Shown here piece after piece: positions 1 to 29,990 of a stretch of DNA of 64,000 nt. The stretch comes from Eledone cirrhosa. Lineage: Eukaryota. The notes beneath the pieces are model-generated. The model ran no database searches. It was not told where the DNA came from and worked only from the letters and a program-made list of their open reading frames with translations. The position numbers and the translations under genes were made by a program. The stretch lies in contig OZ024748.1 of assembly GCA_964016885.1 (NCBI GenBank), forward strand, positions 25,048,001 through 25,112,000, in the 5' to 3' direction. Numbering within the stretch: the first letter of the stretch is position 1; each line of letters starts with the position of its first letter.

Positions 1-18
1 ATACACACACATATATAC

Positions 19-92
<74 letters not shown>
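1..92. repeat. (TA)n/(TG)n microsatellite
   Basis: Direct reading of dinucleotide runs. Confidence 0.95.
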
Positions 93-93
<1 letters not shown>

Positions 94-660
94 AAGAACT
101 ATTTGCAACCGTGCTGCATAAAATGTGACAAGTATGATGATACATTAGAGGTCATAAAGAAGACACACTGAACTTATTAACTCGACCTGTTAACAGGTCA
201 GGTTATTAACATTCAATAAGAAATACTTTCTCTTCAGTTGATTGTTATTATCTTTCCCTGTGATTATGCATGAAAGGGCGATTCATTCCATTAAGGCTTG
301 TGGAGGTAGTATGATTGAAGAGATATCGATTTTGTTAATCACTAACTTCAATCATATTAGCATTCTATGCTTGGAAACACATCAAAGTACAGATTGGCTA
401 AATTTAATTCTGATTTCTCCACTTTGCCTGTTCTGATTTCTATGAATTAATCCACCTCTTCTAAACCATAAAAATAACACCCTTCAATCTCAGTAAGCAG
501 TATTTCGTATTAGAAGATTCTAGACAGGTTCTGATAAAATGCAATTTGTAGTCAGTCATAAAATGTTACACTGATGGATCAGTTTTCATAGAAACTAATG
601 AGTTTCAGCTCCTCTTTAATTCAGTTTTGTACATCGAACTTTGCTTCAAATTACAAGTCT

Positions 661-761
661 GTTATCATCACCATCACCATCATCGTCGTCGTCGTCGTAG
701 TCGTCATCAGCATCGTCATCAACATCGTCATCATCATCATCATCATCATCGTCGTCATCAA

Positions 762-792
<31 letters not shown>

Positions 793-851
793 GTCATCAG
801 CATCGTCATCAACATCGTCATCATCATCATCATCATCATCGTCGTCATCAA

Positions 852-897
<46 letters not shown>

Positions 898-922
898 GTC
901 ATCATCGTCGTCATCAACATCG

Positions 923-954
<32 letters not shown>

Positions 955-1007
955 GTCATCATCATCATCATCATCATCATCATCACCATCACCATCATCA
1001 TCATCGT
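661..1007. repeat. Imperfect (CAT/CGT)n trinucleotide microsatellite
   Basis: CAT runs with CGT/CAA/CAG interruptions. Explains the poly-H/I/M ORFs. Confidence 0.95.
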
Positions 1008-1058
1008 TGTGATCGTTGTTTATGTTGCGCCTAAATCAGAAACCCTTATTATTATTAT

Positions 1059-1520
1059 TTACGGGGTCGATAAAATAAAGTACCAGTAATGCACTGGGTA
1101 ATTGCTGGCCTTGTGCCTAAAGTAGAAACAATTATTTGCCAGTATCGGTAGAAGGTCGGACGCCATGCTTTGACGCATAGAGTTACGGCCCTTGCCATTC
1201 TGAGTTCAAATCCTGCCGAGGTTAACTTTGCCTTTCATTCTTACGGGGTCGATAAAATAAAGTACCAGTAATACACTGGATAATTGCTGGCCTTGTGCCA
1301 AAAGTAGAAACAATTATTATTATTAGGGTGGTGGATTGGTAGTATCGGTAGAGCGTCGGACGCCATGCTTTGCAGCTTAGAGTCCCGGCCCTTTAAGTTC
1401 TGAGTTCAAATCCTTACTGGGTCGATAACATGAAGCACCTGTAATGTACTGGCGTCAATTTAATCGATTTTCCTCTCCCTAAAATTACTGGCCTTGACCC
1501 TAAATCAGAAACCATTATGA
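1059..1520 (+). mobile_element. Tandem cluster of tRNA-derived SINE family 1 copies
   Basis: A-box-like TGGCAGTATCGGTAGA, B-box-like GAGTTCAAATCC and core GCCGAGGTTAACTTTGCCTTTCATCCTTACGGGGTCGATAAAATAAAGTACCAG. Roughly 20 copies occur in the window. Confidence 0.85.
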
Positions 1521-1524
1521 TTAT

Positions 1525-1566
<42 letters not shown>

Positions 1567-1577
1567 AGCAAATCCTC

Positions 1578-1602
1578 TTAATTCTGCTGGATCTCAAACG
1601 TA
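1578..1602 (-). CDS. Possible terminal coding exon of the VirK-like gene (S-TFEIQQN*)
   Basis: T-rich tract then CAG at 1603-1605. Phase 2 entry matches the previous exon. Very short, so weak support. Confidence 0.2.
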
Positions 1603-1825
1603 CTGGACCATTAATAAACAAAAAACAAAAATTTCCTTTATGCCGAGAGTGGGTCATAATTAGCTGACAGCGATGGCGTGCTTGTATTAATGCAAATGGG
1701 CATCATTTTGGACCCTTATATGTGTATACAAGTGTGTGTGTGAGAGATGGGAGGGGTGCGATTGATATTATATTTATCGATTTCGAAAAGATGAAATCTA
1801 AAATTGATCTCCAAGTATTGCATTG

Positions 1826-2065
1826 AAGGCGCGTGACTTAGTGGCTAAAGAATTGGATTCACAATCGTGCGGTTGTGAGTTCGTTGCGTTATGTCCTTCA
1901 GCAAGACAATTTATTTTACGTTTCTCTTTCTGCCAGCAGCTGCGACCGGTAGATAGTATCAGATCAGCAATTAGACAGAGCAAAGGAAACATTGTTTCCT
2001 CGGTCCGATTTGACGAGTTCCACCCCACTCGGCCAGCGAATGAGGTCAGGGATCTAGGCGATCGT
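1826..2065 (+). mobile_element. tRNA-derived SINE family 3 copy
   Basis: GGCGCGTGACTTAGTGG head and ...TGTCCTTCAGCAAGACA... body. Homologous to 29699-29950 and 57590-57832. Confidence 0.75.
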
Positions 2066-2220
2066 TTTTATTTTTTTCTTCAGTAGAAGAAGAATAAAAA
2101 AAAAAACGGCGGTGGTGGTGGTGGTCTTTATATAGTAGTGTCGTTGTTGTTCGAACTGGAAAATGTCTGTGCGTTGATGTTCTCTCTCTTTCACTCACTG
2201 CCTCTGTCTCTCTCGCTCTC

Positions 2221-2418
2221 CCCATCTCTCATTAAGATAGAGAAGGCGTTTCCGCGGAGGATGGTGAGGGAGAGGCATTAGAAGAGCCATTCCAGCTCAT
2301 GAGGCTCACACATGCGCCTAGCCAACTCTGTGCCGATGGTGGTGAGTAATGGGGTGGTTCTAGGGCCAAGAACACCAGAAGTCTCCACTACTACAGGCTC
2401 GACCGCAAACCTGTCGGA
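2221..2418 (-). mobile_element. 3' remnant of a CRE-like non-LTR retrotransposon (RLE C-terminus), degenerate
   Basis: Manual translation SDRFAVEPVVVETSGVLGPRTTPLLTTIGTELARRMCEPHELEWLF*CLSLTILRGNAFSIL matches the P.xxETxGxxG...LSxxIxRGNA tail of CRE-type elements. One in-frame stop at 2278-2280. Confidence 0.7.
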
Positions 2419-2420
2419 GG

Positions 2421-3521
2421 TAAGATCTTACCTTTGTATGACTAAAATAAGAGCTTACCTTTGTATGACTAAAATAAGAGTTTATCTTTGTATGACTAAA
2501 ATAAGATCTTACCTTTGTATGACTAAAATAAGAGCTTATCTTTGTATGACTAAAATAAGAGTTTATCTTTGTATGACTAAAATAAGATCTTACCTTTGTA
2601 TGACTAAAATAAGAGCTTACCTTTGTATGACTAAAATAAGAGCTTACCTTTGTATGACTAAAATAAGAGCTTATCTTTGTATGACTAAAATAAGAGCTTA
2701 TCTTTGTATGACTAAAATAAGAGTTTATCTTTGTATGACTAAAATAAGAGCTTACCTTTGTATGACTAAAATAAGAGTTTATCTTTGTATGACTAAAATA
2801 AGAGCTTACCTTTGTATGACTAAAATAAGAGCTTACCTTTGTATGACTAAAATAAGAGCTTACCTTTGTATGACTAAAATAAGAGCTTATCTTTGTATGA
2901 CTAAAATAAGAGTTTATCTTTGTATGACTAAAATAAGAGCTTACCTTTGTATGACTAAAATAAGAGCTTACCTTTGTATGACTAAAATAAGAGCTTATCT
3001 TTGTATGACTAAAATAAGAGCTTATCTTTGTATGACTAAAATAAGAGTTTATCTTTGTATGACTAAAATAAGAGCTTACCTTTGTATGACTAAAATAAGA
3101 GTTTATCTTTGTATGACTAAAATAAGAGTTTATCTTTGTATGACTAAAATAAGAGCTTACCTTTGTATGACTAAAATAAGAGTTTATCTTTGTATGACTA
3201 AAATAAGAGTTTATCTTTGTATGACTAAAATAAGTGCTTACCTTTGTATGACTAAAATAAGAGCTTACCTTTGTATGACTAAAATAAGAGCTTATCTTTG
3301 TATGACTAAAATAAGAGTTTATCTTTGTATGACTAAAATAAGAGCTTACCTTTGTATGACTAAAATAAGAGTTTATCTTTGTATGACTAAAATAAGAGTT
3401 TATCTTTGTATGACTAAAATAAGAGCTTACCTTTGTATGACTAAAATAAGAGTTTATCTTTGTATGACTAAAATAAGAGCTTACCTTTGTATGACTAAAA
3501 TAAGAGCTTACCTTTGTATGA
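2421..3521. repeat. 27-bp minisatellite, ~41 copies, containing the exon end and splice donor
   Basis: Unit AGAGCTTACCTTTGTATGACTAAAATA; on the minus strand TATTTTAG-TCATACAAAG-GTAAGCTCT. Confidence 0.95.
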
Positions 3522-3650
3522 CGTCATAGAGCTGACAAAACCATTTGCCTTGTTTCTGAATGTGACTCTGAGGAGGCAGCAAGTATGTTACTGTCACATA
3601 AACAGACGAGTTACTGTAGACAACAACTTCTTTTAATATAGAAACAAATC
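3512..3650 (-). CDS. Coding exon, C-terminal half of VirK-like domain
   Basis: Acceptor TTTGTTTGTTTCGTGCCAG, donor AG/GTAAGC, 139 nt, phase 1 to 2. Open frame GFVSILKEVVVYSNSSVYVTVTYLLPPQSHIQKQGKWFCQLYDVIQ continues exon 5458-5750 in phase. Not in the ORF track. Confidence 0.8.
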
Positions 3651-3709
3651 CTGGCACGAAACAAACAAAATAGGTTTAGTACAGTTAAAGAAAAACAAAC
3701 GTGTTACAT

Positions 3710-3868
3710 GTATGTGTGTGTGTGTGTGTGTGTCTGATTATGTTTGTATGTGCGTGTGTGACTATGTTTGTATGTATGTGTGTATGTATCTGACTGTTTT
3801 TATGTGCGTGTGTGTGTTTGTATGTGCATGTGTGTGGGTATGTGACTATGTATGTGTGTGTGTGTATT

Positions 3869-3922
<54 letters not shown>
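3710..3922. repeat. Degenerate (TG)n microsatellite
   Basis: Direct reading. Confidence 0.9.
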
Positions 3923-4329
3923 CTTGTTAGTGCGTATAGATACAACAAGGCCGAATAGTTAAACATCTCGCTTCGCAATCATTAGGTTTGGAGTTCGATA
4001 CCACTGCGTGGCATCTTAAACAAATGTCATTTAAGAATATACATATATATATATAATAGGAGTTTATATCGATATCCAGTGATATATAAATATGCATGTA
4101 TGTATATATATATATATAATTCCTCATGTTGTCAAATAGATGGGTTGTCAGTGTTTAGTCCACCGACTCATGATATCTGCTGGATCTTTGACGAGAACGT
4201 GCCCATCTTTGGACATTAATGGTGACATTTTTTTAGGGTTGTGGACCAAACACTTGCCTTATTGTGCTGTATAATGCCTTCAAGACTCCGCAGCGAAAGA
4301 TCATCAAATATTGATGTGATGTCTTCGAG

Positions 4330-4572
4330 AAAAAGCGAGTGGAGCATGCTGTTTCGAAGCGTTCACTTCGTAAGCAGGACTCAAGTGCAAAATTTCAGCA
4401 AGAATTGCGGTGCAATTTATGTAACCGATTTCTTCTAACACTAGCTGGTTTTGTTAACCATCTGAAGTCACAGGAGCCAGGGAGATGGTTCTGTAAGATG
4501 GTTCTACCGTCACGCACTCTACGGTACATTTGCAGTGAGTGTGACTTAATTTGGACTGACCAGACATGGTAA
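4330..4572 (+). mobile_element. Degenerate 3' end of an RTE-like LINE with C2H2-like fingers
   Basis: EHAVSKRSLRK...CNLCNRFLLTLAGFVNHLKS...CSEC. Similar architecture to 37440-37870. Confidence 0.45.
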
Positions 4573-4633
4573 AATGCATGAAGATACACCCCAGTCGGTT
4601 TTACCAGGAGACATATATATATATATACGAGAC

Positions 4634-4667
<34 letters not shown>

Positions 4668-4771
4668 AAAAGAATGAAACGAAATTTCATTTCTCACTCT
4701 TAGTACGGGTGATACTTAAATGTAAGTATGTATATATACGTACACACATATATGTATACAGACGTAGAGTA

Positions 4772-4841
<70 letters not shown>

Positions 4842-4967
4842 ACAGTAGTATATATATATATATATATATATACACGAGCGGGTGTGAAGAGTCACCTGCT
4901 TGCACATGATCGTGCAATGTTTAATCAAGGGATGGCACTCTCTGACAAGAAGTAGCAATCAACATAA

Positions 4968-5021
<54 letters not shown>

Positions 5022-5075
5022 GTGAGGTTTTTTTTACAAAATGAAAAATAACCGAGGTGTTCTACACGTGAAAGT

Positions 5076-5370
5076 ATAAAGAAAAAGAGATGAAATCGAA
5101 AATGCAACTGGAGTCTTATTTTTTTAAAACATATATATATTTATTTGGTTCCTTTACCGGTTTCGCAGTTCTTCTGCTTTTCAAAAGGTGAGTTGAGATG
5201 GAGGGTCTGTGGTTTTTCTCACATCAGATGTGAGAAAAACCACAGACCCTCCATCTCAACTCACCTTTTGAAAAGGAGAAGAACTGCGAAATCGGTAAAG
5301 GAACCAAATAAATATATATATGTTTTAAAAAAATAAGACTCCAGTTGCATTTTCGATTTCATCTCTTTTT

Positions 5371-5376
<6 letters not shown>
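5076..5376. repeat. ~300-bp near-perfect palindrome (fold-back element), centre 5226
   Basis: Arms are reverse complements with about 2 mismatches. A (TA)n tract abuts the right end and another lies just upstream. Confidence 0.95.
5151..5188 (-). ncRNA. Minimal type I hammerhead ribozyme motif (U3-A8 variant)
   Basis: CCUU-UUGAAAA-GCAG[AAGAA]CUGC-GAAA-CCGG-UA-AAGG: stem I CCUU/AAGG, stem II 4 bp, palindromic stem III. Mirror copy with 2 substitutions at 5264-5301 (+). Confidence 0.75.
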
Positions 5377-5414
<38 letters not shown>

Positions 5415-5457
5415 TCTTTTCACTTCAGTTTAGCTATTTGAATGTATTTTTACTTAC

Positions 5458-5750
5458 CTGATTCTGTGTGAATTAATTTGTGGTGAGAAAATTCCAGTCG
5501 TAGAATCTCTTTCTTTTTATAATCTCTAAATATTTCATATGTATCAACGTAGTCTCCGAACGATAAACGGTCCACCTTGGTACCAGAAACCAGGTAGCAA
5601 TTGGTTAGATTAACTGTATATCTTACACTATGACCTGACGTTAAAGCTCCTGCTAAACTAACCAAGTCACGCAACTCCCAAGGTCCAATATACAAGTTAG
5701 CTAACTTCGGCGAGTCTTTTTGAAATTTACGAGATCTGCCGAAACGTAAC
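5458..5750 (-). CDS. Coding exon, N-terminal half of VirK-like domain
   Basis: Acceptor TTTCTATTCCAG, perfect donor CAG/GTAAGT, 293 nt, phase 2 to 1. Non-repetitive peptide ...LAGALTSGHSVRYTVNLTNC...GDYVDTYEIF...LEFSHHKL. Confidence 0.85.
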
Positions 5751-6025
5751 CTGGAATAGAAATCAATAAATGAATAAGGAAAAATTACAAACAAAATACT
5801 GTTCGACGAAGAAATATTAATACATTAGTACATATATAAAAGCAGCGATCAAGCTGAAACTTCGAAGTCACTGCCACTTTTCTACACAGAAAATAACATT
5901 TACACAACAAGCAGTGAGTGCTCATTCGGTTAATGTTTGAATGTTATGATTGCTAGGGCATTTTAAACATCCATTCTAATATTATATATGCCTGTCCCTT
6001 CAATCTTTCTAATTTCTCATTCTTT

Positions 6026-6060
6026 CTTCTGATGAAGGACTAGCATCCGAAACGGTAAGA
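6026..6060 (+). ncRNA. Hammerhead-like core within a dispersed Penelope pLTR-like repeat
   Basis: CUGAUGA-A-GGA[CUAGCA]UCC-GAAA-CGG-UA; stem I is weak. Downstream ...AGCGTTAACCTAATA is shared with 54345-54420 and the reverse copies near 7000-7060 and 46365-46475. Confidence 0.5.
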
Positions 6061-6249
6061 CCCTCTTCCTGCTATTTCAAGCGTTAACCTAATATGTTCC
6101 TTCCATATATTGTACCGATTTTGTTGTTATTTCTGTTTTCCTTATACACATATGTATATATATATATATGTGTGTGTGTGTGAGTGTGTGTGTGTGTGTG
6201 TGGTGTGTGTGTATGTGTGTGTGAGTGTGTGTGTGTGTGTATAAATAAA

Positions 6250-6440
6250 GAGGGCATGGTAAGATACCAGGTAGAGCATAACTCACCAGAGTACTCAATA
6301 CTTAGGGTAGTAGAGTGGGTAGTAGGAAAAGAGTCAGGACCTCGATGGCTGAGCTCCGGCCGTTTCGACAGCTAGATCTAGTTCGGATCTAGCTGTTGAA
6401 ACGGGCGGAGCTCAGCCGTCGGGGTCCTGCCTCTTTTCCT
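6250..6440 (+). mobile_element. Small non-autonomous element ending in a ~118-bp hairpin
   Basis: Inverted repeat at 6323-6440. Homologous inverted copy at 45127-45320 and degenerate copy at 60217-60335, all flanked by TA-rich simple repeats. Confidence 0.65.
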
Positions 6441-6692
6441 ATATATATATATATATATATACACACACATATTTACGCGTGTAGAAAATGTGTTAAATTT
6501 CTAAAAGACTTTGGTTTTTCTTTTAAATACACTCACATACATACGCGCGCACACACACACACCACATATAAATATACATATATATATATGTATGTATACA
6601 TATGTTTGTGCGTATATGTACGTACGTGTGTATAAATGTACGTATGTATATATATATACATATATATGTATGTATATAGATGATGTATGATA

Positions 6693-6757
<65 letters not shown>

Positions 6758-6945
6758 TATGTGTGTGTGTATGTATGTATATATGTATAAATTAACTATG
6801 GAGATATAAAAGATACAGAAGCGAAAACTAATCCAAACCAAACATTGAGTGTGTTTTATTATTATTTCTGGCAATATTATAATAATATGACCTTCCCAAA
6901 ATATAACCTTATATATATATATATATATATCATATATCATATATC

Positions 6946-6995
<50 letters not shown>

Positions 6996-7807
6996 AAAAT
7001 TTGAACGGGAACAAAACAGAGAGGCAGTACGAACAAATGTTTATTAGTTTCACGCTCTTGAGAGTGGGGTGGTGGTGATATATATCATTTATTATATATT
7101 CCTGATCCCTATATGAACTTTTATCTATACAATGCATCATATAAATACACTTTTCAAGATATTGTGACCTCCACCATTTAGATGGTACTATATACAATCT
7201 TTAATAAATACCTAAAACACTTCAAATATTTTTCAATTTTCACCAATTTCAACATATCAATTCCACTGGTGACTTCATGCTATGTATGATTGATTAAGAC
7301 TGGAAACAAAGCAAGAATATTCAGCTCGATATTTGTTAAAACGGAAACAACACCCAAAACTTCTGTCTACATTCTCTTCCTTCGGGTTAAACCTGAAAGT
7401 AATCGCAAAGATTAATCTGATCCACCTTACTGGTCTTTCGTTAATTTCGAGTTCCAAACCCTTTCCATCACCTCAATTAGCTTGAACCCTCAAGCAGACC
7501 TATTTATAATTTCTAGTATCAACGTCACGCCGCCTCAATTAGCTTCAACCATCTAAATGACTTTTCTGTAGTTTCTAGTATCAACCGCAGCCTCGGGTAC
7601 CCTGAACCGTCTAGCTGACTTTTCTAGTTTCAATGCCACTCCATAACCTCTCACATCTGTTAATGGTAACTATCTCTTACTCTCATTATAATATTCCTCA
7701 ATAACTTTTCCTCGATGATCATTTATAGAATACAATTCTTTGTTGATAAAATAGCTTAAACAATTTCATTCATACCTTTATACCAGTAGCTGCCTATAAA
7801 CAACATA

Positions 7808-10782
7808 GCAGACACCGCTCTCTAGAAGGTGGGACAGACACTGCTTTCTAGAGCGTCGGACATCACTCTTTAGAAGATGACACAGACACCGCTCTCTAGA
7901 AGGTGGGACAGACACTGATTTCTAGAGGGTTGGACACCACTCTTTAGAAGGTGACACAGACACCGCTCTCTAGAAGGTGGGACAGACACTGCTTTCTAGA
8001 GGGTTGGACACCACTCTTTAGAAGGTGACACAGACACCGCTTTCTAGAAGGTGGGACAGACACTGCTTTCTAGAGCGTTGGACATCACTCTTTAGAAGGT
8101 GACACAGACACCGCTTTCTAGAAGGTGGGACAGACACTGCTCTCTAGAGCGTTGGACATCACTCTTTAGAAGGTGACACAGACACCGCTTTCTAGAAGGT
8201 GGGACAGACACTGCTTTCTAGAGCGTTGGACATCACTCTTTAGAAGGTGACACAGACGCCGCTTTCTAGAAGGTGGGACAGACACTGCTTTCTAGAGCGT
8301 TGGACACCACTCTTTAGAAGGTGACACAGACACCGCTTTCTAGAAGGTGGGACAGACACTGCTTTCTAGAGCGTTGGACATCACTCTTTAGAAGGTGACA
8401 CAGACACCGCTTTCTAGAAGGTGGGACAGACACTGCTTTCTAGAGCGTTGGACATCACTCTTTAGAAGGTGACACAGACACCGCTCTCTAGAAGGCGGGA
8501 CAGACACTGCTCTCTAGAGGGTTGGACACCACTCTTTAAAAGGTGACACAGACACCGCTTTCTAGAAGGTGGGACAGACACGGCTTTCTAGAGCGTTGGA
8601 CATCACTCTTTAGAAGGTGACACAGACACTGCTTTTTAGAAGGTGGGACAGACACTGCTCTCTAGAGCGTTGGACATCACTCTTTAGAAGGTGACACAGA
8701 CACCGCTTTCTAGAAGGTGGGACAGACACTGCTTTCTAGAGCGTTGGACATCACTCTTTAGAAGGTGACACAGACACCGCTTTCTAGAAGGTGGGTCAGA
8801 CACTGCTTTCTAGAGCGTTGGACACCACTCTTTAGAAGGTGACACAGACACCGCTTTCTAGAAGGTGTGACAGACACTGCTTTCTAGAGCGTTGGACATC
8901 ACTCTTTAGAAGGTGACACAGACACCGCTTTCTAGAAGGTGGGACAGACACTGCTCTCTAGAGCGTTGGACATCACTCTTTAGAAGGTGACACAGACACC
9001 GCTTTCTAGAAGGTGGGACAGACACTGCTTTCTAGAGCGTTGGACACCACTCTTTAGAAGGTGACACAGACACCGCTTTCTAGAAGGTGGGACAGACACT
9101 GCTTTCTAGAGCGTTGGACATCACTCTTTAGAAGGTGACACAGACACCGCTTTCTAGAAGGTGGGACAGACACTGCTCTCTAGAGCGTTGGACATCACTC
9201 TTTAGAAGGTGACACAGACACCGCTTTCTAGAAGGTGGGACAGACACTGCTTTCTAGAGCGTTGGACATCACTCTTTAGAAGGTGACACAGACACCGCTT
9301 TCTAGAAGGTGGGACAGACACTGCTTTCTAGAGCGTTGGACACCACTCTTTAGAAGGTGACACAGACACCGCTTTCTAGAAGGTGGGACAGACACTGCTT
9401 TCTAGAAGGTGGGACAGACACTGCTTTCTAGAGCGTTGGACACCACTCTTTAGAAGGTGACACAGACACCGCTTTCTAGAAGGTGGGACAGACACTGCTT
9501 TCTAGAGCGTTGGACACCACTCTTTAGAAGGTGACACAGACACCGCTTTCTAGAAGGTGGGACAGACACTGCTTTCTAGAGCGTTGGACACCACTCTTTA
9601 GAAGGTGACACAGACACCGCTTTCTAGAAGGTGGGACAGACACTGCTTTCTAGAGCGTTGGACATCACTCTTTAGAAGGTGACACAGACACCGCTTTCTA
9701 GAAGGTGGGACAGACACTGCTCTCTAGAGCGTTGGACATCACTCTTTAGAAGGTGACACAGACACCGCTTTCTAGAAGGTGGGACAGACACTGCTTTCTA
9801 GAGCGTTGGACATCACTCTTTAGAAGGTGACACAGACACCGCTTTCTAGAAGGTGGGACAGACACTGCTTTCTAGAGCGTTGGACACCACTCTTTAGAAG
9901 GTGCAACAGACACCGCTTTCTAGAAGGTGGGACAGACACTGCTTTCTAGAGCGTTGGACATCACTCTTTAGAAGGTGACACAGACACCGCTTTCTAGAAG
10001 GTGGGACAGACACTGCTTTCTAGAGCGTTGGACACCACTCTTTAGAAGGTGACACAGACACCGCTTTCTAGAAGGTGGGACAGACACTGCTTTCTAGAGC
10101 GTTGGACATCACTCTTTAGAAGGTGACACAGACACCGCTTTCTAGAAGGTGGGACAGACACTGCTTTCTAGAGCGTTGGACATCACTCTTTAGAAGGTGA
10201 CACAGACACCGCTTTCTAGAAGGTGGGACAGACACTGCTTTCTAGAAGGTGGGACAGACACTGCTCTCTAGAGCGTTGGACATCACTCTTTAGAAGGTGA
10301 CACAGACACCGCTTTCTAGAAGGTGGGATACCACTCTCTAGAAAGTGGATCACACTCTCTAGATGGTCGGTTACTCTTCTTTAGAAAGTGGGACACGGCT
10401 CTCTAGAAGGTGGGACACCACTCTCTAGAAAGTGGGACACGGCTCTCTAGAAGGTGGGACACCACTCTCTAGAAAGTGGGACACGGCTCTCTAGAAGGTG
10501 GGACACCACTCTCTAGAAAGTGGGACACGGCTCTCTAGAAGGTGGGACACCACTCTCTAGAAAGTGGGACGCGGCTCTCTAGAAGGTGGGACACCACTCT
10601 CTAGAAAGTGGGACACCGTTCTCTAGAAGGTGGCATGTCACCCTCTAGATGGAGGGACGCCACTCTCTAGAAGGTGGGGCACTCCTCTCTAGAAGGTGGC
10701 ATAAACACCGCTATCTAGTAGGTGGGAGAGACACCGCTCTCTAAAAGGTGAGATAGACACCGCTCTCTAGAAGGTGACACCC
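7808..10782. repeat. Compound satellite: ~34 x 74-bp (26+22+26) units grading into 44-bp (22+22) and degenerate 22/26-bp units
   Basis: Shared core GACAC..CTYTCTAGAAGGTGG. A period of 74 was verified between 8040 and 8114. Confidence 0.95.
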
Positions 10783-11102
10783 TCACCTTATCTCAAACGA
10801 AACTTGACGTTGTATGTCATTTCTATCTGATTTCAAATGTATCACACATAAAATCGTTCACATGGCTAAACTATTCTCTCTCACACCCTGTAACATATTT
10901 CTGATGCTGTGTAAACTAAGATCGCCGTTGAAATCCTTGGTTAAAATAATTTTTCTGTTGTGCTTTTAATTGTGATTTTATTTAACTCGGTGATGGTATT
11001 TTGTGTGAGGAGTTTTGGCTAGTTTAAGTTTGTTATATTTTGTTGATGGTTAGGGGTTGTGCAAGAGAAATTACATATCTCCACAACAAAGCCTACAACT
11101 AG

Positions 11103-14100
11103 CTAGCATCTTCTTATCGTGTAGCTGTCTTTCAATCCAGTCCAACAGAACTAGCTTCTTCCTATAGTGTAGCTGTCTTTCAATCCAGTCCGACAGAACT
11201 AGCTTCTTCCTATAGTGTAGCTGTCTTTCAATCCAGTCCGACAGAACTAGCTTCTTCCTATAGTGTAGCTGTCTTTCAATCCAGTCCAACAGAACTAGCT
11301 TCTTCCTATAGTGTAGCTGTCTTTCAATCCAGTCCGACAGAACTAGCTTCTTCCTATAGTGTAGCTGTCTTTCAATCCAGTCCAACAGAACTAGCTTCTT
11401 CCTATAGTGTAGCTGTCTTTCAATCCAGTCCAACAGAACTAGCTTCTTCCTATAGTGTAGCTGTCTTTCAATCCAGTCCAACAGAACTAGCTTCTTCCTA
11501 TAGTGTAGCTGTCTTTCAATCCAGTCCAACAGAACTAGCTTCTTCCTATAGTGTAGCTGTCTTTCAATCCAGTCCGACAGAACTAGCTTCTTCCTATAGT
11601 GTAGCTGTCTTTCAATCCAGTCCGACAGTTCTAGCTTCTTCCTATAGTGCAGCTGTCTTTCAATCCAGTCCGACAGAACTAGCTTCTTCCTATAGTGTAG
11701 CTGTCTTTCAATCCAGTCCGACAGAACTATCTTCTTCCTATAGTGTAGCTGTCTTTCAATCCAGTCCAACAGAACTAGCTTCTTCCTATAGTGTAGCTGT
11801 CTTTCAATCCAGTCCGACAGAACTAGCTTCTTCCTATAGTGTAGCTGTCTTTCAATCCAGTCCGACAGTACTAGCTTCTTCCTATAGTGTAGATGTCTTT
11901 CAATCCAGTCCGACAGTACTAGCTTCTTCCTATAGTGTAGCTGTCTTTCAATCCAGTCCGACAGTAATAGCTTCTTCCTATAGTGTAGCTGTCTTTCAAT
12001 CCAGTCCGACAGAACTAGCTTCTTCCTATAGTGTAGCTGTCTTTCAATCCAGTCCGACAGTACTAGCTTCTTCCTATAGTGTAGCTGTCTTTCAATCCAG
12101 TCCAACAGAACTAGCTTCTTCCTATAGTGTAGCTGTCTTTCAATCCAGTCCGACAGTACTAGCTTCTTCCTATAGTGTAGCTGTCTTTCAATCCAGTCCA
12201 ACAGAACTAGCTTCTTCCTATAGTGTAGCTGTCTTTCAATCCAGTCCGACAGTACTAGCTTCTTCCTATAGTGTAGCTGTCTTTCAATCCAGTCCAACAG
12301 AACTAGCTTCTTCCTATAGTGTAGCTGTCTTTCAATCCAGTCCGACAGAACTAGCTTCTTCCTATAGTGTAGCTGTCTTTCAATCCAGTCCGACAGAACT
12401 AGCTTCTTCCTATAGTGTAGCTGTCTTTCAATCCAGTCCGACAGAACTAGCTTCTTCCTATAGTGTAGCTGTCTTTCAATCCAGTCCGACAGAACTAGCT
12501 TCTTCCTATAGTGTAGCTGTCTTTCAATCCAGTCCGACAGAACTAGCTTCTTCCTATAGTGTAGCTGTCTTTCAATCCAGTCCGACAGTACTAGCTTCTT
12601 CCTATAGTGTAGCTGTCTTTCAATCCAGTCCAACAGAACTAGCTTCTTCTTATCGTGTAGCTGTCTTTCAAACCAGTCCGACAGTACTAGCTTCTTCCTA
12701 TAGTGTAGCTGTCTTTCAATCCAGTCCGACAGAACTAGCTTCTTCCTATAGTGTAGCTGTCTTTCAATCCAGTCCAACAGAACTAGCTTCTTCCTATAGT
12801 GTAGCTGTCTTTCAATCCAGTCCGACAGAACTAGCTTCTTCCTATAGTGTAGCTGTCTTTCAATCCAGTCCGACAGTTCTAGCTTCTTCCTATAGTGCAG
12901 CTGTCTTTCAATCCAGTCCGACAGAACTAGCTTCTTCCTATAGTGTAGCTGTCTTTCAATCCAGTCCGACAGAACTATCTTCTTCCTATAGTGTAGCTGT
13001 CTTTCAATCCAGTCCAACAGAACTAGCTTCTTCCTATAGTGTAGCTGTCTTTCAATCCAGTCCGACAGAACTAGCTTCTTCCTATAGTGTAGCTGTCTTT
13101 CAATCCAGTCCGACAGTACTAGCTTCTTCCTATAGTGTAGCTGTCTTTCAATCCAGTCCGACAGTACTAGCTTCTTCCTATAGTGTAGCTGTCTTTCAAT
13201 CCAGTCCGACAGTAATAGCTTCTTCCTATAGTGTAGCTGTCTTTCAATCCAGTCCGACAGAACTAGCTTCTTCCTATAGTGTAGCTGTCTTTCAATCCAG
13301 TCCGACAGTACTAGCTTCTTCCTATAGTGTAGCTGTCTTTCAATCCAGTCCAACAGAACTAGCTTCTTCCTATAGTGTAGCTGTCTTTCAATCCAGTCCG
13401 ACAGTACTAGCTTCTTCCTATAGTGTAGCTGTCTTTCAATCCAGTCCAACAGAACTAGCTTCTTCCTATAGTGTAGCTGTCTTTCAATCCAGTCCGACAG
13501 TACTAGCTTCTTCCTATAGTGTAGCTGTCTTTCAATCCAGTCCGACAGAACTGGCTTCTTCCTATAGTGTAGCTGTCTTTCAATCCAGTCCGACAGAACT
13601 AGCTTCTTCCTATAGTGTAGCTGTCTTTCAATCCAGTCCGACAGAACTAGCTTCTTCCTATAGTGTAGCTGTCTTTCAATCCAGTCCGACAGAACTAGCT
13701 TCTTCCTATAGTGTAGCTGTCTTTCAATCCAGTCCGACAGAACTAGCTTCTTCCTATAGTGTAGCTGTCTTTCAATCCAGTCCGACAGAACTAGCTTCTT
13801 CCTATAGTGTAGCTGCCTTTCAATCCAGTCCGACAGTACTAGCTTCTTCTTATCGTGTAGCTGTCTTTCAAACCAGTCCGACAGTACTAGCTTCTTCGTA
13901 TAGTGTAGCTGTCTTTCAATCCAGTCCGACAGTACTAGCTTCTTCCTATAGTGTAGCTGTCTTTCAATCCAGTCCGACAGAACTAGCTTCTTCCTACAGT
14001 GTAGCTGTCTTTCAATCAAGTCCGACAGTACTAGCTTCTTCCTATAGTGTAGCTGTCTTTCAATCCAGTCCGACAGTACTAGCTTCTTCCTATAGTGTAG

Positions 14101-17100
14101 CTGTCTTTCAATCCAGTCCGACAGAACTAGCTTCTTCCTATAGTGTAGCTGTCTTTCAATTCAGTCCAAGAGAACTAGATTCTTCCTATAGTGTAGCTGT
14201 CTTTCAATCCAGTCCGACAGAACTAGCTTCTTCCTATAGTGTAGCTGTCTTTCAATTCAGTCCGACAGAACTAGCTTCTTCCTATAGTGTAGCTGTCTTT
14301 CAATCCAGTCCGACAGAACTAGCTTCTTCCTATAGTGTAGCTGTTTTTCAATCCAGTCCGACAGTACTAGCTTCTTCCTATAGTGTAGCTGTCTTTCAAT
14401 CCAGTCCAACAGAACTAGCTTCTTCTTATCGTGTAGCTATCTTTCAATCCAGTCCGACAGTACTAGCTTCTTCCTATAGTGTAGCTGTCTTTCAATCCAG
14501 TCCGACATAACTAGCTTCTTCCTATAGTGTAGCTGTCTTTCAATCCAGTCCGACAGAACTAGCTTCTTCCTATAGTGTAGCTGTCTTTCAATTCAGTCCG
14601 ACAGAACTAGCTTCTTCCTATAGTGTAGCGGTCTTTCAATCCAGTCCGACAGAACTAGCTTCTTCCTATAGTGTAGCTGTCTTTCAATCCAGTCCGACAG
14701 TACTAGCTTCTTCCTATAGTGTAGCTGTCTTTCAATCCAGTCCGACAGAACTAGCTTCTTCCTATAGTGTAGCTGTCTTTCAATCCAGTCCGACAGAACT
14801 AGCTTCTTCCTATAGTGTAGCTGTCTTTCAATCCAGTCCGACAGAACTAGCTTCTTCCTATAGTGTAGCTGTCTTTCAATCCAGTCCGACAGAACTAGCT
14901 TCTTCCTATAGTGTAGCTGACTTTCAATCCAGTCCGACAGAACTAGCTTCTTCCTATAGTGTAGCTGTCTTTCAATCCAGTCCGACAGAACTAGCTTCTT
15001 CCTATAGTGTAGCTGTCTTTCAATCCAGTCCGACAGTACTAGCTTCTTCCTATAGTGTAGCTGTCTTTCAATCCAGTCCGACAGTACTAGCTTCTTCCTA
15101 TAGTGTAGCTGTCTTTCAATCCAGTCCGACAGAACTAGCTTCTTCCTATAGTGTAGCTGTCTTTCAAACCAGTCCGACAGAACTAGCTTCTTCCTATAGT
15201 GTAGCTGTCTTTCAATCCAGTCCGACAGAACTAGCTTCTTCCTATAGTGTAGCTGTCTTTCAATCCAGTCCGACAGAACTAGCTTCTTCCTATAGTGTAG
15301 CTGTCTTTCAATCCAGTCCGACAGTACTAGCTTCTTCCTATAGTGTAGCTGTCTTTCAATCCAGTCCGACAGTACTAGCTTCTTCCTATAGTGTAGCTGT
15401 CTTTCAATCCAGTCCGACAGAAGTAGCTTCTTCCTATAGAGTAGCTGTCTTTCAATCCAGTCCGACAGAACTAGCTTCTTCCTATAGTGTAGCTGTCTTT
15501 CAATCCAGTCCGACAGAACTAGCTTCTTCCTATAGTGTAGCTGTCTTTCAATCCAGTCCGACAGTACTAGATTCTTCCTATAGTGTAGCTGTCTTTCAAT
15601 CCATTCCGACAGAACTAGCTTCTTCCTATAGTGTAGCTGTCTTTCAATCCAGTCCGACAGAACTAGCTTCTTCCTATAGTGTAGCTGTCTTTCAATCCAG
15701 TCCGACAGAACTAGCTTCTTCCTATAGTGTAGATGTCTTTCAATCCAGTCCGACAGTACTAGCTTCTTCCTATAGTGTAGCTGTCTTTCAATCCAGTCCG
15801 ACAGAACTAGCTTCTTCCTATAGTGTAGCTGTCTTTCAATCCAGTCCGACAGAACTAGCTTCTTCCTATAGTGTAGCTGTCTTTCAATCCAGTCCGACAG
15901 AACTAGCTTCTTCCTATAGTGTAGCTGTCTTTCAATCCAGTACGACAGTACTAGCTTCTTCCTATAGTCTAGCTGTCTTTCAATCCAGTCCGACAGTACT
16001 AGCTTCTTCCTATAGTGTAGCTGTCTTTCAATCCAGTCCGACAGTACTAGCTTCTTCCTATAGTGTAGCTGTCTTTCAATCCAGTCCGACAGTACTAGCT
16101 TCTTCCCATAGTGTAGCTGTCTTTCAATCCAGTCCGACAGAACTAGCTTCTTCTTATCGTGTAGCTGTCTTTCAATCCAGTCCGACAGTACTAGCTTCTT
16201 CCTATAGTGTAGCTGTCTTTCAATCCAGTCCGACAGAACTAGCTTCTTCTTATCGTGTAGCTGTCTTTCAATCCAGTCCGACAGTACTAGCTTCTTCCTA
16301 TAGTGTAGCTGTCTTTCAATCCAGTCCGACAGAACTAGCTTCTTCTTATCGTGTAGCTGTCTTTCAATCCAGTCCGACAGTACTACCTTCTTCCTATAGT
16401 GTAGCTGTCTTTCAATCCAGTCCGCAAGTACTAGCTTCTTCCTATAGTGTAGCTGTCTTTCAATCCAGTCCGACAGAACTAGCTTCTTCCTATAGTGTAG
16501 CTGTCTTTCAATCCAGTCCGACAGTACTAGATTCTTCCTATAGTGTAGCTGTCTTTCAATCCATTCCGACAGAACTAGCTTCTTCCTATAGTGTAGCTGT
16601 CTTTCAATCCAGTCCGACAGAACTAGCTTCTTCCTATAGTGTAGCTGTCTTTCAATCCAGTCCGACAGAACTAGCTTCTTCCTATAGTGTAGATGTCTTT
16701 CAATCCAGTCCGACAGTACTAGCTTCTTCCTATAGTGTAGCTGTCTTTCAATCCAGTCCGACAGTACTAGCTTCTTCCTATAGTGTAGCTGTCTTTCAAT
16801 CCAGTCCGACAGAACTAGCTTCTTCCTATAGTGTAGCTGTCTTTCAATCCAGTCCGACAGAACTAGCTTCTTCCTATAGTGTAGCTGTCTTTCAATCCAG
16901 TCCGACAGAACTAGCTTCTTCCTATAGTGTAGCTGTCTTTCAATCCAGTACGACAGTACTAGCTTCTTCCTATAGTCTAGCTGTCTTTCAATCCAGTCCG
17001 ACAGTACTAGCTTCTTCCTATAGTGTAGCTGTCTTTCAATCCAGTCCGACAGTACTAGCTTCTTCCTATAGTGTAGCTGTCTTTCAATCCAGTCCGACAG

Positions 17101-20100
17101 TACTAGCTTCTTCCCATAGTGTAGATGTCTTTCAATCCAGTCCGACAGAACTAGCTTCTTCTTATCGTGTAGCTGTCTTTCAATCCAGTCCGACAGTACT
17201 AGCTTCTTCCTATAGTGTAGCTGTCTTTCAATCCAGTCCGACAGAACTAGCTTCTTCTTATCGTGTAGCTGTCTTTCAATCCAGTCCGACAGTACTAGCT
17301 TCTTCCTATAGTGTAGCTGTCTTTCAATCCAGTCCGACAGAACTAGCTTCTTCTTATCGTGTAGCTGTCTTTCAATCCAGTCCGACAGTACTAGCTTCTT
17401 CCTATAGTGTAGCTGTCTTTCAATCCAGTCCGCAAGTACTAGCTTCTTCCTATAGTGTAGCTGTCTTTCAATCCAGTCCGACAGAACTAGCTTCTTCCTA
17501 TAGTGTAGCTGTCTTTCAATCCAGTCCGACAGTACTAGCTTCTTCGTATAGTGTAGCTGACTTTCAATCCAGTCCGACAGAACTAGCTTCTTCCTATAGT
17601 GTAGCTGTCTTTCAATCCAGTCCGACAGAACTAGCTTCTTCCTATAGTGTAGCTGTCTTTCAATCCAGTCCGACAGAACTAGCTTCTTCCCATAGTGTAG
17701 CTGTCTTTCAATCCAGTCCAACAGAACTAGCTTCTTCCTATAGTGTAGCTGTCTTTCAATCCAGTCCGACAGAACTAGCTTCTTCTTATCGTGTAGCTGT
17801 CTTTCAATCCAGTCCGACACTACTAGCTTCTTCTTATCGTGTAGCTGTCTTTCAATTCAGTCCGACAGAACTAGCTTCTTCTTATCGTGTAGCTGTCTTT
17901 CAATCCAGTCCGACAGAACTAGCTTCTTCTTATCGTGTAGCTGTCTTTCAATCCAGTCCGACAGTACTAGCTTCTTCCTATAGTGTAGCTGTCTTTCAAT
18001 CCAGTCCGACAGTACTAGCTTCTTCCTATAGTGTAGCTGTCTTTCAATCCAGTCCAACAGAACTAGCTTCTTCCTATAGTGTAGCTGTCTTTCAATCCAG
18101 TCCGACAGTACTAGCTTCTTCCTATAGTGTAGCTGTCTTTCAATCCAGTCCGACAGTACTAGCTTCTTCCTATAGTGTAGCTGTCTTTCAATCCAGTCCG
18201 ACAGAACTAGCTTCTTCCTATAGTGTAGCTGTCTTTCAATCCAGTCCGACAGAACTAGCTTCTTCCTATAGTGTAGCTGTCTTTCAATCCAGTCCGACAG
18301 AACTAGCTTCTTCCTATAGTGTAGCTGTCTTTCAATCCAGTCCGACAGAACTAGCTTCTTCCTATAGTGTAGCTGTCTTTCAATCCAGTCCGACAGTACT
18401 AGCTTCTTCCTATAGTGTAGCTGTCTTTCAATCCAGTCCGACAGAACTAGCTTCTTCCTATCGTGTAGCTGTCTTTCAATCCAGTCCGACAGAACTAGCT
18501 TCTTCCTATCGTGTAGCTGTCTTTCAATCCAGTCCGACAGAACTAGCTTCTTCCTATAGTGTAGCTGTCTTTCAATCCAGTCCGACAGAACTAGCTTCTT
18601 CTTATCGTGTAGCTGTCTTTCAATCCAGTCCGACAGTACTAGCTTCTTCCTATAGTGTAGCTGTCTTTCAATCCAGTCCGACAGTACTAGCTTCTTCCTA
18701 TAGTGTAGCTGTCTTTCAATCCAGTCCGACAGTACTAGCTTCTTCCTATAGTGTAGCTGTCTTTCAATCCAGACCGACAGTACTAGCTTCTTCCTATAGT
18801 GTAGCTGTCTTTCAATTCAGTCCGACAGAACTAGCTTCTTCCTATAGTGTAGCTGTCTTTCAATCCAGTCCGACAGAACTAGCTTCTTCCTATAGTGTAG
18901 CTGTCTTTCAATCCAGTCCGACAGAACTAGCTTCTTCCTATAGTGTAGCTGTCTTTCAATCCAGTCCAACAGAACTAGCTTCTTCCTATAGTGTAGCTGT
19001 CTTTCAATCCAGTCCGACAGAACTAGCTTCTTCTTATCGTGTAGCTGTCTTTCAATCCAGTACGACACTACTAGCTTCTTCTTATCGTGTAGCTGTCTTT
19101 CAATCCAGTCCGACAGAACTAGCTTCTTCTTATCGTGTAGCTGTCTTTCAATCCAGTCCGACAGAACTAGCTTCTTCTTATCGTGTAGCTGTCTTTCAAT
19201 CCAGTCCAACAGAACTAGCTTCTTCCTATAGTGTAGCTGTCTTTCAATCCAGTCCGACAGTACTAGCTTCTTCCTATAGTGTAGCTGTCTTTCAATCCAG
19301 TCCGACAGTACTAGCTTCTTCCTATAGTGTAGCTGTCTTTCAATCCAGTCCGACAGTACTAGCTTCTTCCTATAGTGTAGCTGTCTTTCAATCCAGTCCG
19401 ACAGTACTAGCTTCTTCCTATAGTGTAGCTGTCTTTCAATCCAGTCCGACAGTACTAGCTTCTTCCTATAGTGTAGCTGTCTTTCAATCCAGACCGACAG
19501 TACTAGCTTCTTCCTATAGTGTAGCTGACTTTCAATCCAGTCCGACAGAACTAGCTTCTTCCTATAGTGTAGCTGTCTTTCAATCCAGTCCGACAGAACT
19601 AGCTTCTTCCTATAGTGTAGCTGTCTTTCAATCCAGTCCGACAGAACTAGCTTCTTCCTATAGTGTAGCTGTCTTTCAATCCAGTCCAACAGAACTAGCT
19701 TCTTCCTATAGTGTAGCTGTCTTTCAATCCAGTCCGACAGAACTAGCTTCTTCTTATCGTGTAGCTGTCTTTCAATCCAGTCCGACACTACTAGCTTCTT
19801 CTTATCGTGTAGCTGTCTTTCAATTCAGTCCGACAGAACTAGCTTCTTCTTATCGTGTAGCTGTCTTTCAATCCAGTCCGACAGAACTAGCTTCTTCTTA
19901 TCGTGTAGCTGTCTTTCAATCCAGTCCGACAGTACTAGCTTCTTCCTATAGTGTAGCTGTCTTTCAATCCAGTCCGACAGTACTAGCTTCTTCCTATAGT
20001 GTAGCTGTCTTTCAATCCAGTCCAACAGAACTAGCTTCTTCCTATAGTGTAGCTGTCTTTCAATCCAGTCCGACAGTACTAGCTTCTTCCTATAGTGTAG

Positions 20101-25625: not shown

Positions 25626-26399
25626 AAGAATCTTTTGTAAATATACTTATATAAGTAGAATGAGAAAAAACTAATATTTACGTTGTATCGAGTTATGTAT
25701 GACAATGATATTGAAGCAAGGAGGGACATCCTGACATTTAACGAGTAGAGAAGTTGATGGTGAAAATATGTTGGTGTTGCCACAAAGTTACATTAAAGTT
25801 AACTTTATTTCAGTTTTAATGTCAGTTCCCACACCAGATTTATTAATGACCGCTTCTTAGATAACAATGCTTTTTTTAAACTCGCCTACATTTCACTTTC
25901 ACACTTCTCTATATATTTTCATCTATATTACTGTTTGGCAAGCTAAGGGACTCCATTTAAAATGAAAAAATAAAAATGACCTTAAACAATGAAAAAAGTC
26001 AAAAGTGTCATATTTAAGTGAGTTTACATAGATGTCATAGAAATGTTGAGGGAACTACTAACGGACGTGCTTTCAAGTGAAGAGGTTAGCAACAAGAGTG
26101 AGAAAGGAAGGAAAAGAAAATGAAATATTATGTTAACACCATGATAAAATCTCTGCAGCCTCTTTCGTTCTTTTCCTTACTGATATTTCACAAATATATG
26201 TGCATTTCTTTTCTTTATTTCATTTAAGTCTTCCGAAAGGAAGGCAACATTCGGTAATAGTGTTTATATAAATTCCAAATATATTAGATGGAAATAAACG
26301 AGAGAAAATATATGCACACCTAAAAGCTAAACAAATGTTTTTCACTTTTACAGTAGATTTCAAAATAGACGCAGCATCGCTAAATGGGTAAAAATACAC

Positions 26400-26640
26400 T
26401 CTGCAATCATTAAGTGCGGGGTTCATTCCTACTGCATGGTATCTTGGGAAGATGTCATTTAACCATAGCCTTTAATCGTTCCATGCCTTGTGAGTGAAAC
26501 TGAGTAGACAGAAACTGCATAGAAGCCCGTCAAATGAACTGTACCGCTAAATCTCACAGCTACCTAGACGTTAATTTCATGAGCTGGCTGTTCCGTTGAT
26601 CAAGCAACTGGAACACTCGTCATCGAAACCAACGGAGATC
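26400..26640 (+). mobile_element. tRNA-derived SINE family 2 copy
   Basis: GGTTCA..CC.ACTGCATGG.ATCTTGGG..A.ATGTCATTT..CCATAGCC...GCCTTGTGAGTG. Homologs at 3947-4030, 47708-48010, 56278-56430 (-) and 57985-58530. Confidence 0.7.
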
Positions 26641-27725: not shown

Positions 27726-27830
27726 TTACATATTTGCGCAGTTTATCAGTATAAAGATAAACCAGACTGGTATTGCTCGCCAAGTTGTACAAAAATAAAA
27801 AAAATTTTAGATTATATGATTTCATAAAAT

Positions 27831-29389: not shown

Positions 29390-29423
<34 letters not shown>

Positions 29424-29627: not shown

Positions 29628-29693
<66 letters not shown>

Positions 29694-29698
29694 ATGTA

Positions 29699-29950: not shown

Positions 29951-29990
29951 ACTATCGATATATATATGTATATATATATATATATATATC

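What the first reader, a model, noticed from the sequence alone, without database searches (positions are those of the whole stretch)
3512..5750. Intron-split VirK-like domain in an animal genome
Seen: two phase-compatible exons encode ...LAGALTSGHSVRYTVNLTNC..GDYVDTYEIF..LEFSHHKLIHTESGFVSILKEVVVYSNSSVYVTVTYLLP..KWFCQL. From memory this parallels the bacterial VirK family pattern (AL..G..V....DL..C ... FS..H ... C), small exported proteins of unknown function in Agrobacterium and other bacteria. Inference: an uncharacterised animal VirK-fold protein, either old horizontal transfer that later gained introns or a patchily retained family.
Basis: partly seen in the sequence, partly recalled or inferred. 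Interest (0 to 1): 0.75.

Follow-up and report, generated by a model that had tools for sequence, protein, structure and literature searches.

The report
Mollusc secreted CpcT-VirK-VirK fusion protein
The two exons belong to an intact octopus gene whose product has the fold of a cyanobacterial pigment-attaching enzyme joined to two copies of a bacterial VirK domain; relatives occur in cephalopods, bivalves and snails, and it is likely a secreted carrier of a small pigment-like molecule, which is untested.

Summary
The two exons (5750-5458, 3650-3512) are part of an intact, roughly 95-kb, 8-exon gene with two cassette exons. The 521-aa form has no stops, all GT-AG introns, and 90% identity to the uncharacterised Octopus sinensis LOC115220992. 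Architecture: predicted signal peptide, CpcT/CpeT barrel (PF06206), basic linker, two VirK domains (PF06903). The orthologue passes both Pfam cut-offs. Predicted folds match VirK 5xta (Z 15.5, next hit 6.0) and CpcT 4o4o (Z 20.1). Relatives are named in cephalopods, bivalves and a gastropod, and they appear to share the exon 4/5 intron. CpcT's catalytic Tyr and Asp (roles recalled) are not kept in cephalopods, and no phycobiliprotein gene was found, so it is not a classical lyase. Best guess: a secreted small-ligand binder, probably for a tetrapyrrole (0.45). One 2024 paper states that this family is absent from animals. I found no paper on the mollusc protein. Horizontal transfer is likely but unproven.

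The parts
5458..5750 (-). Coding exon (finding exon A): end of the basic linker and first two thirds of VirK domain 1 (residues 240-337 of the 521-aa form; Cys291)
   Evidence: also covered by single-copy-depth DNA contigs 5422-5873 in 3 of 4 runs laid
3512..3650 (-). Coding exon (finding exon B): second part of VirK domain 1 (residues 338-383; Cys376)
3651..5457 (-). 1,807-nt phase-1 GT-AG intron at Gly338; the position appears shared with bivalve-like and gastropod-like homologues
   Evidence: 13 of 13 exon-sized database fragments match the exon-A profile to position 73-76 of 76 and none scores on the exon-B profile
54713..54763 (-). 51-nt in-frame cassette exon in the linker, encoding an R-G-R-R furin-type motif
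   Evidence: database isoforms with and without it
62097..62236 (-). Coding exon: C-terminal strands of the CpcT/CpeT barrel (residues 177-222)
1..64000 (-). The whole window lies inside the gene. Exons outside it, in G000:C8: 25139132-25138605 (ATG, signal peptide, most of the CpcT barrel), 25134796-25134767 (30-nt cassette), 25044862-25044693 and 25043896-25043652 (end of VirK1, VirK2, stop)
2421..3522 (-). 27-bp x 40.8 tandem array formed from the exon-B donor junction (intronic by-product, not coding)

Best explanation
The two exons are part of one intact mollusc gene encoding a CpcT-type barrel plus two VirK domains; the product is predicted to be secreted and likely binds a small flat ligand, most likely a tetrapyrrole such as a bilin, non-covalently in the barrel rather than attaching it to a protein. 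Shown: the gene model, the domain identities, the conservation, and the loss of the cyanobacterial catalytic pair in cephalopods. Inferred steps: (1) the signal peptide sends it through the secretory route, with three disulfides (C148-C168, C291-C376, C426-C505) and N-glycans; (2) the barrel takes up the ligand; (3) the VirK pair is a docking or ligand-holding module for extracellular partners; (4) in octopods the 51-nt cassette adds the only strict furin-type site, so splicing may decide whether the barrel is cut free of the VirK pair; (5) both domain types likely came from bacteria before the mollusc classes split.
For: Gene: 521-aa and 504-aa forms without stops, all GT-AG; second cassette found, score 49 against 5 for the next of 55 candidates. 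Domains: 5 of 5 full-length proteins pass both Pfam cut-offs. Folds: 4o4o Z 20.1, rmsd 2.4 over 183; CRL 6lix Z 16.8; 5xta Z 14.3 on VirK2; 5xta Z 15.5, rmsd 2.0 over 116 on VirK1, next hit 6.0 of 48,161 chains. VirK1 against VirK2: HHalign 95.5%. Secretion: hydrophobic N-terminus (window mean 2.05-3.73 in 8 of 10 sequences; the other two lack the N-terminus), no later membrane segment, six cysteines invariant in 7 full-length rows. Ligand: 4o4s is CpcT with bound phycocyanobilin; plant CRL keeps bilin binding with a diverged function (PMC8931380, passage); the next structural neighbours include heme-binding nitrobindins (Z 9.7). The barrel is as conserved as the VirK domains (135/201 invariant in 4 cephalopods). 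Spliced expression is inferred from full-length ORFs on 1.75-4.1-kb Logan contigs of relatives.
Against: No ligand was tested. The arginine, tyrosine and tryptophan positions that hold bilin in CpcT (roles recalled) are poorly kept: P-Y-R becomes P-V-Q or P-S-Q in cephalopods and the Trp column is I, V or L. CRL's bilin binding is unrelated to its phenotype, so the fold need not imply a pigment role. Biliverdin was not detected in the four mollusc species' shells tested in PMC4674117, although protoporphyrin was (abstract). The signal peptide rests on hydropathy only. The strict furin motif lies in the linker of only 1 of 5 non-cephalopod sequences and is constitutive in the two squid/cuttlefish-like clusters. 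Domain packing is unresolved (pTM 0.50). The folds were computed for the 90%-identical orthologue, not for this genome's own protein.
Confidence: 0.45

Rival explanations
1. A secreted structural or adhesion protein (mucus, matrix, cuticle or shell) in which the barrel works as a protein-interaction scaffold, as plant CRL does, with no relevant small ligand.
For: Strong net positive charge (+28; 17 K/R against 1 acidic residue in 213-262). CRL and SSG7 have diverged to protein-import roles (passages). Bilin-contact positions are weakly kept.
Against: No low-complexity or repeat motifs typical of matrix proteins. One copy in this genome. 28 of 201 barrel positions are invariant across three classes, including Asn40, Arg112, Trp152, Glu194 and Trp196.
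Confidence: 0.27
2. A host-microbe interface protein that binds bacterial, algal or dietary molecules in gut, gill or skin secretions, using domains that bacteria themselves export.
For: Bacterial VirKs are type II-secreted at host interfaces (passages of PMC5700972 and PMC6617341). A stand-alone CpeT-family gene with a hydrophobic N-terminus occurs in Aeromonas. The protein is cationic.
Against: Single copy and 72% identical between octopods and squid/cuttlefish-like forms, unlike typically expanded, fast-evolving immune families (general knowledge). No expression data.
Confidence: 0.15
3. A true enzyme: an extracellular lyase that covalently adds a bilin or similar electrophile to a cysteine of an animal protein, possibly its own VirK domains.
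For: Closest fold is CpcT. His33-equivalent and the barrel disulfide are kept in cephalopods. Mactra keeps Asp at the Asp163 column, and an invariant Glu194 lies one residue away, so the register is uncertain.
Against: The Tyr65 column is V, S or F and the Asp163 column is Q or N in 6 of 7 animal rows. No phycobiliprotein match in the genome. All six mature cysteines pair up as conserved disulfide candidates, leaving no free acceptor.
Confidence: 0.1
4. On origin only: the two domains are ancient and were inherited vertically, then lost in most animals, rather than transferred from bacteria.
For: Animal sequences are distant from all bacterial ones: no tblastn match in plasmids or phages, 12-18% identity in structural alignments. 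CpcT-family genes occur in plants. The Atlas cluster is 100% eukaryotic with Mollusca only 'commonest'.
Against: Plant CRL is plastid-associated, so its presence is explained by endosymbiosis. The top three VirK clusters were 86-100% bacterial (scores under 0.9, leads only). All 9 named animal species found are molluscs. Two independent families would need the same pattern of losses.
Confidence: 0.3

Closest known systems
Bacterial VirK family (Pfam PF06903; Legionella lpg1832/NttG, PDB 5xta; Agrobacterium Ti-plasmid VirK)
   Same: Fold (Z 15.5 and 14.3), helix-strand-Cys start and terminal Cys pair, profile match to six plasmid VirKs (HHalign 93.3% and 95.6%), export signal, unknown activity.
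   Different: Two tandem copies inside a 504-531-aa protein behind a CpcT barrel; intron-split; 13-16% identity to 5xta; animal host. Not related to the Shigella/Klebsiella VirK/YbjX family of the same name (recalled; not tested).
T-type phycobiliprotein lyases CpcT/CpeT (PF06206; PDB 4o4o/4o4s; phage CpeT 5hi8)
   Same: Barrel fold (Z 20.1), Pfam score 55.8 bits, Y/F-S-N start motif, His and the Cys pair.
   Different: Signal peptide, VirK fusion, catalytic Tyr/Asp columns changed in cephalopods, no phycobiliprotein substrate found in the genome.
Plant CRUMPLED LEAF / rice SSG7 (PDB 6lix)
   Same: A eukaryotic CpcT-fold protein with a diverged job (Z 16.8; passages).
   Different: CRL is anchored in the plastid outer envelope with the barrel in the cytosol and has no VirK domains; this protein is predicted to be secreted.
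RefSeq 'uncharacterized protein LOC115220992' (Octopus sinensis) and its database orthologues
   Same: Same gene: 90% identical, with database isoform lengths of 504, 514, 521 and 531 aa matching the two cassettes; automatic Pfam labels PF06903 and PF06206 are already attached.
   Different: No name or function is given, and I found no paper on it.

Membership tests
VirK (PF06903) | Pfam score above the curated cut-off (23.7 bits) | tested here: met
   Whole orthologue 34.8 bits; 5 of 5 full-length proteins pass. Exon A alone 19.1 bits does not; a six-frame genome scan found 0 matches.
VirK (PF06903) | lpg1832 (5xta) fold | tested here: met
   VirK1 model pLDDT 93: Z 15.5, rmsd 2.0 over 116; Foldseek E 2.1e-6. 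VirK2: Z 14.3, rmsd 1.7 over 117.
VirK (PF06903) | Conserved cysteine pair at the first strand and near the C-terminus | tested here: met
   C291/C376 and C426/C505 are invariant in 7 full-length rows and align with the bacterial cysteines.
VirK (PF06903) | N-terminal export signal | tested here: inconclusive
   Hydrophobic N-terminus by hydropathy; no signal-peptide predictor was run.
VirK (PF06903) | Small stand-alone single-domain protein of about 145 aa | tested here: not met
   Two domains within a 504-531-aa fusion. The domains are members; the protein is not a typical VirK.
VirK (PF06903) | Role in host interaction | not testable with these tools
   Undefined even in bacteria (passages).
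T-type bilin lyase CpcT/CpeT (PF06206) | Pfam score above cut-off (21 bits) and calyx beta-barrel fold | tested here: met
   49.4 bits on this genome's exon 1; Z 20.1 to 4o4o.
T-type bilin lyase CpcT/CpeT (PF06206) | Cys116-Cys137 pair and His33 | tested here: met
   C148/C168 invariant; His60 kept in cephalopods and the gastropod-like row, not in three bivalve rows.
T-type bilin lyase CpcT/CpeT (PF06206) | Catalytic Tyr65 and Asp163 (roles recalled from Zhou 2014, not read) | tested here: not met
   Tyr column V/S/F, none Tyr in 7 animal rows; Asp column Q/N in 6 of 7, D in Mactra. A one-residue shift would place the invariant Glu194 there.
T-type bilin lyase CpcT/CpeT (PF06206) | A phycobiliprotein substrate encoded in the same organism | tested here: not met
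   PF00502: 0 matches in G000, control Synechococcus positive; an exon-wise scan can miss genes.
T-type bilin lyase CpcT/CpeT (PF06206) | Bilin binding and covalent attachment activity | not testable with these tools
   Needs an assay.
T-type bilin lyase CpcT/CpeT (PF06206) | Homodimer (recalled for CpcT) | not tested
   No dimer model was obtained.
Horizontally transferred gene in an animal | Integrated in a host chromosome with spliceosomal introns (not contamination) | tested here: met
   60.6-Mb contig, introns of 0.8-49 kb holding a non-LTR element and satellites.
Horizontally transferred gene in an animal | Nesting within a bacterial clade in a supported tree; absence from sister lineages | tested here: inconclusive
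   Only 5 non-animal CpeT and 6 VirK sequences were in hand, and no tree was built. The animal profile scored cyanobacterial CpeT highest (35.5 bits) and Aeromonas 14.5, while the Atlas ranked Pseudomonadota clusters nearest (0.78).

The most novel reading that the evidence does not exclude
Early molluscs, or their ancestors, built a secreted protein from two bacterial domain families and use it as an animal bilin-handling protein: it captures dietary phycobilins or the animal's own heme-breakdown pigments outside the cell for transport, colour, light sensing or detoxification, with alternative splicing controlling release of the pigment-binding barrel. It would be the first CpcT-type pigment binder in animals and the first tractable handle on what VirK domains do.
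Probability: 0.25. Interest if true: 0.85.

Novelty: new variant of a known kind. Interest (0 to 1): 0.58.

Why it matters
A 2024 paper states that CRL/CpcT homologues are absent from animals (PMC11606413, passage), and a 2017 paper describes VirK as specific to plant-associated bacteria (PMC5700972, passage). Here both domains sit in one conserved, intron-rich mollusc gene. Molluscs deposit tetrapyrrole pigments, and a carrier with this fold would be directly testable by a simple colour-shift binding assay. The fusion also links VirK, whose function is unknown, to a ligand-binding barrel. If no ligand binds, it remains an old, undescribed domain fusion of probable bacterial origin.

Tried and rejected
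RNA junction: no RNA holder listed; the four runs laid behave as DNA, covering repeats and introns, and show no 5458/3650 joint among the rows shown; exon B was only partly covered there. This says nothing on expression. Pseudogene or chance ORF: rejected (after correcting two off-by-one acceptor positions). Contamination: rejected. Six of the 24 hits (P0010, P0011, P0013, P0018, P0022, P0024) were dropped as long repeat proteins with short repeated matches. A bacterial CpcT-VirK fusion was sought and not found, but sensitivity was poor: the genome scan gave one chance hit in a phage-tail-like gene; the metagenome scan gave 0 of 199 candidates; tblastn of the orthologue in plasmids and phages gave none; a phylum-wide bacterial search could not be centred. 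The profile search returned only four cephalopod proteins and missed rows of its own alignment, so the range outside molluscs is untested. NCBIfam: nothing meaningful. PDB sequence searches gave only weak hits (5xta E 0.44-0.67, 4o4o E 0.17). A slug paper's 'CPCT1/2' genes are undefined in the passages, section 2.6 and supplement 2 that I read; not counted as prior description. The CpcT structure paper was not held, and the supplements of two HGT compendia could not be read; these could list the gene. No dimer model was obtained. Flanking loci L029 and L030 were fetched and not analysed.

Full report
Observation. The window lies at G000:C8:25048001-25112000 in a 3.0-Gb genome. On the minus strand, exons 5750-5458 and 3650-3512 have canonical acceptors and donors and are joined by a 1,807-nt phase-1 intron. 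Exon A alone matches Pfam VirK at E 0.0014, below the cut-off, and exon B matches nothing. The nearest database protein is from Octopus bimaculoides at 90% identity.

The whole gene. A search of 1.84 billion representatives with exon A gave 24 hits. I kept 18 and dropped 6 long repeat proteins. The best hit, a 515-aa Argonauta protein, mapped to six places on this contig. The assembled model has seven exons over about 95 kb, all GT-AG. It gives 521 aa with the 51-nt cassette at 54763-54713 and 504 aa without it, with no internal stop, and is 469/521 identical to O. sinensis LOC115220992. A second, 30-nt cassette lies in intron 1 (score 49 against 5 among 55 candidates). Together the cassettes account for the 504, 514, 521 and 531-aa isoforms in databases. 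No paralogue was found in this genome (lower bounds).

Expression. No RNA of this species was available. Full-length ORFs of 504-532 aa on Logan contigs of 1,750-4,128 bases can hardly be genomic if the gene is as intron-rich in those animals as it is here, so I infer spliced transcripts in related cephalopods.

Domains. Five of five full-length proteins tested pass the cut-offs of both CpeT (PF06206) and VirK (PF06903). Among the 18 kept hits, 12 had a VirK match at E 0.05 or better and 3 passed its cut-off. The AlphaFold model of the orthologue (pLDDT 79.9, pTM 0.50) has a barrel at residues 22-222, a disordered linker at 223-262 and two compact domains. The barrel matches CpcT 4o4o (Z 20.1), plant CRL (16.8) and phage CpeT (15.9); residues 398-520 match VirK 5xta (Z 14.3). 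The finding's own domain, folded alone (pLDDT 93), matches 5xta at Z 15.5, rmsd 2.0 over 116 residues, with the next of 48,161 chains at Z 6.0 (Foldseek E 2.1e-6). The two VirK domains are an internal repeat (HHalign 95.5%), and each matches a profile of six bacterial VirKs (93.3% and 95.6%).

Secretion and processing. Eight of ten sequences begin with a hydrophobic stretch, the other two lack the N-terminus, and none has a later membrane segment. The model carries three N-glycan sequons and a net charge of +28. Six cysteines are invariant across seven full-length rows, two per domain. In octopods the 51-nt cassette supplies the only R-X-K/R-R motif in the protein (3 of 3 forms with it, 0 of 4 without). 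Squid/cuttlefish-like forms have a second, constitutive motif (9 of 9). Only 1 of 5 bivalve or gastropod sequences has one in the linker. The furin consensus is general knowledge, and cleavage is inferred.

Active site. Against three cyanobacterial, one phage and one Aeromonas sequence (Nostoc numbering), the animals keep the S/T-N start motif, the cysteine pair and, in cephalopods and the gastropod-like row, the His. The Tyr65 column is V, S or F, the Asp163 column is Q or N in 6 of 7 rows, and the Trp175 column is aliphatic. The catalytic roles of these residues are recalled from Zhou 2014, which I saw only as a reference line. The register near Asp163 is uncertain by one residue. No phycobiliprotein gene was found in the genome. 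I therefore do not file the protein as a T-type lyase. Non-covalent ligand binding remains the most economical use of a conserved calyx: 4o4s holds a bilin, CRL retains bilin binding without being a lyase, and nitrobindins are the next folds.

Age and origin. Named homologues come from nine mollusc species in three classes, at 27-36% identity between classes. Thirteen of 13 exon-sized fragments end at the same Gly338 boundary; 11 of them are nearest to the bivalve Mactra or the gastropod Nucella. The intron therefore appears older than the class split. Contamination is excluded. Transfer from bacteria is likely (about 0.65, inference from the families' known ranges), but I built no tree, the two similarity signals disagree on the nearest bacterial group, and the range outside molluscs is untested. 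An earlier AI note on an exported two-domain CpcT relative in a heterotrophic bacterium is a lead only; I found a stand-alone relative in Aeromonas but no bacterial CpcT-VirK fusion.

Literature. Ten searches showed no paper on this gene or on animal VirK or CpcT domains among the listed results. Most were seen as listings only, and several returned far more papers than were listed. Passages read: PMC11606413 (states absence from animals), PMC8931380, PMC10254012, PMC8983314, PMC5700972, PMC6617341. Reference line only: PMC7325957. Abstract: PMC4674117. PMC13336835: passages, one section, one supplement. Supplements of two HGT compendia were unreadable and may list the gene. The automatic Pfam labels already exist in databases.

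Verdict. A real, intact, conserved gene. The VirK reading is correct but incomplete. The CpcT-VirK-VirK architecture is a new variant of known families, with unknown but directly testable chemistry. Interest 0.58.

Noticed in passing
window 2421-3522: A 27-bp x 40.8 tandem array built from the end of exon B and the start of its intron: 20 copies keep an AAG|GTAAG donor and 21 carry GAT instead. Use of any downstream donor would read straight into TAA, so these are potential decoy donors.
   Followed up: partly
window 34967-37432 (minus): Non-LTR retrotransposon remnant in the 49-kb intron: RVT_1 E 4.6e-24 and zf-RVT in two consecutive open frames. A related-looking fragment lies at 33350-33892.
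   Followed up: partly
window 11103-25625 and 7809-10776: 48-bp x 302.6 and 74-bp satellites; the first gives stop-free frames of up to 3,709 codons that are not genes.
   Followed up: partly
window about 5090-5340: A long inverted repeat visible in the intron between the two exons, lying in very high-copy repeat sequence (contig depths of several hundred thousand); possibly a MITE-like element.
   Followed up: no
G000:C8:25134796-25134767: 30-nt cassette exon inserting 10 residues into a beta-hairpin of the CpcT barrel, present in octopod and squid/cuttlefish-like isoforms. In CpcT a loop is recalled to cover the partner's pocket; whether it is the same loop was not checked.
   Followed up: partly
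L019:3866-4585: Stand-alone CpeT-family gene (136.8 bits) with a hydrophobic N-terminus in Aeromonas caviae, in a 4.9-Mb record filed as a plasmid. Its P-F-R-Q-R motif matches the gastropod-like protein P0020.
   Followed up: partly
ESM Atlas cluster, rank 1: A 95-member all-eukaryote cluster of about 227 aa (44% PF06206, Mollusca commonest) hints at stand-alone or partial CpcT-domain proteins, possibly beyond molluscs; score 0.80, a lead only.
   Followed up: no
PMC13336835 (not a locus): Undefined genes 'CPCT1' and 'CPCT2' change in slug muscle under salt stress; whether these are CpcT-domain genes could not be told.
   Followed up: partly
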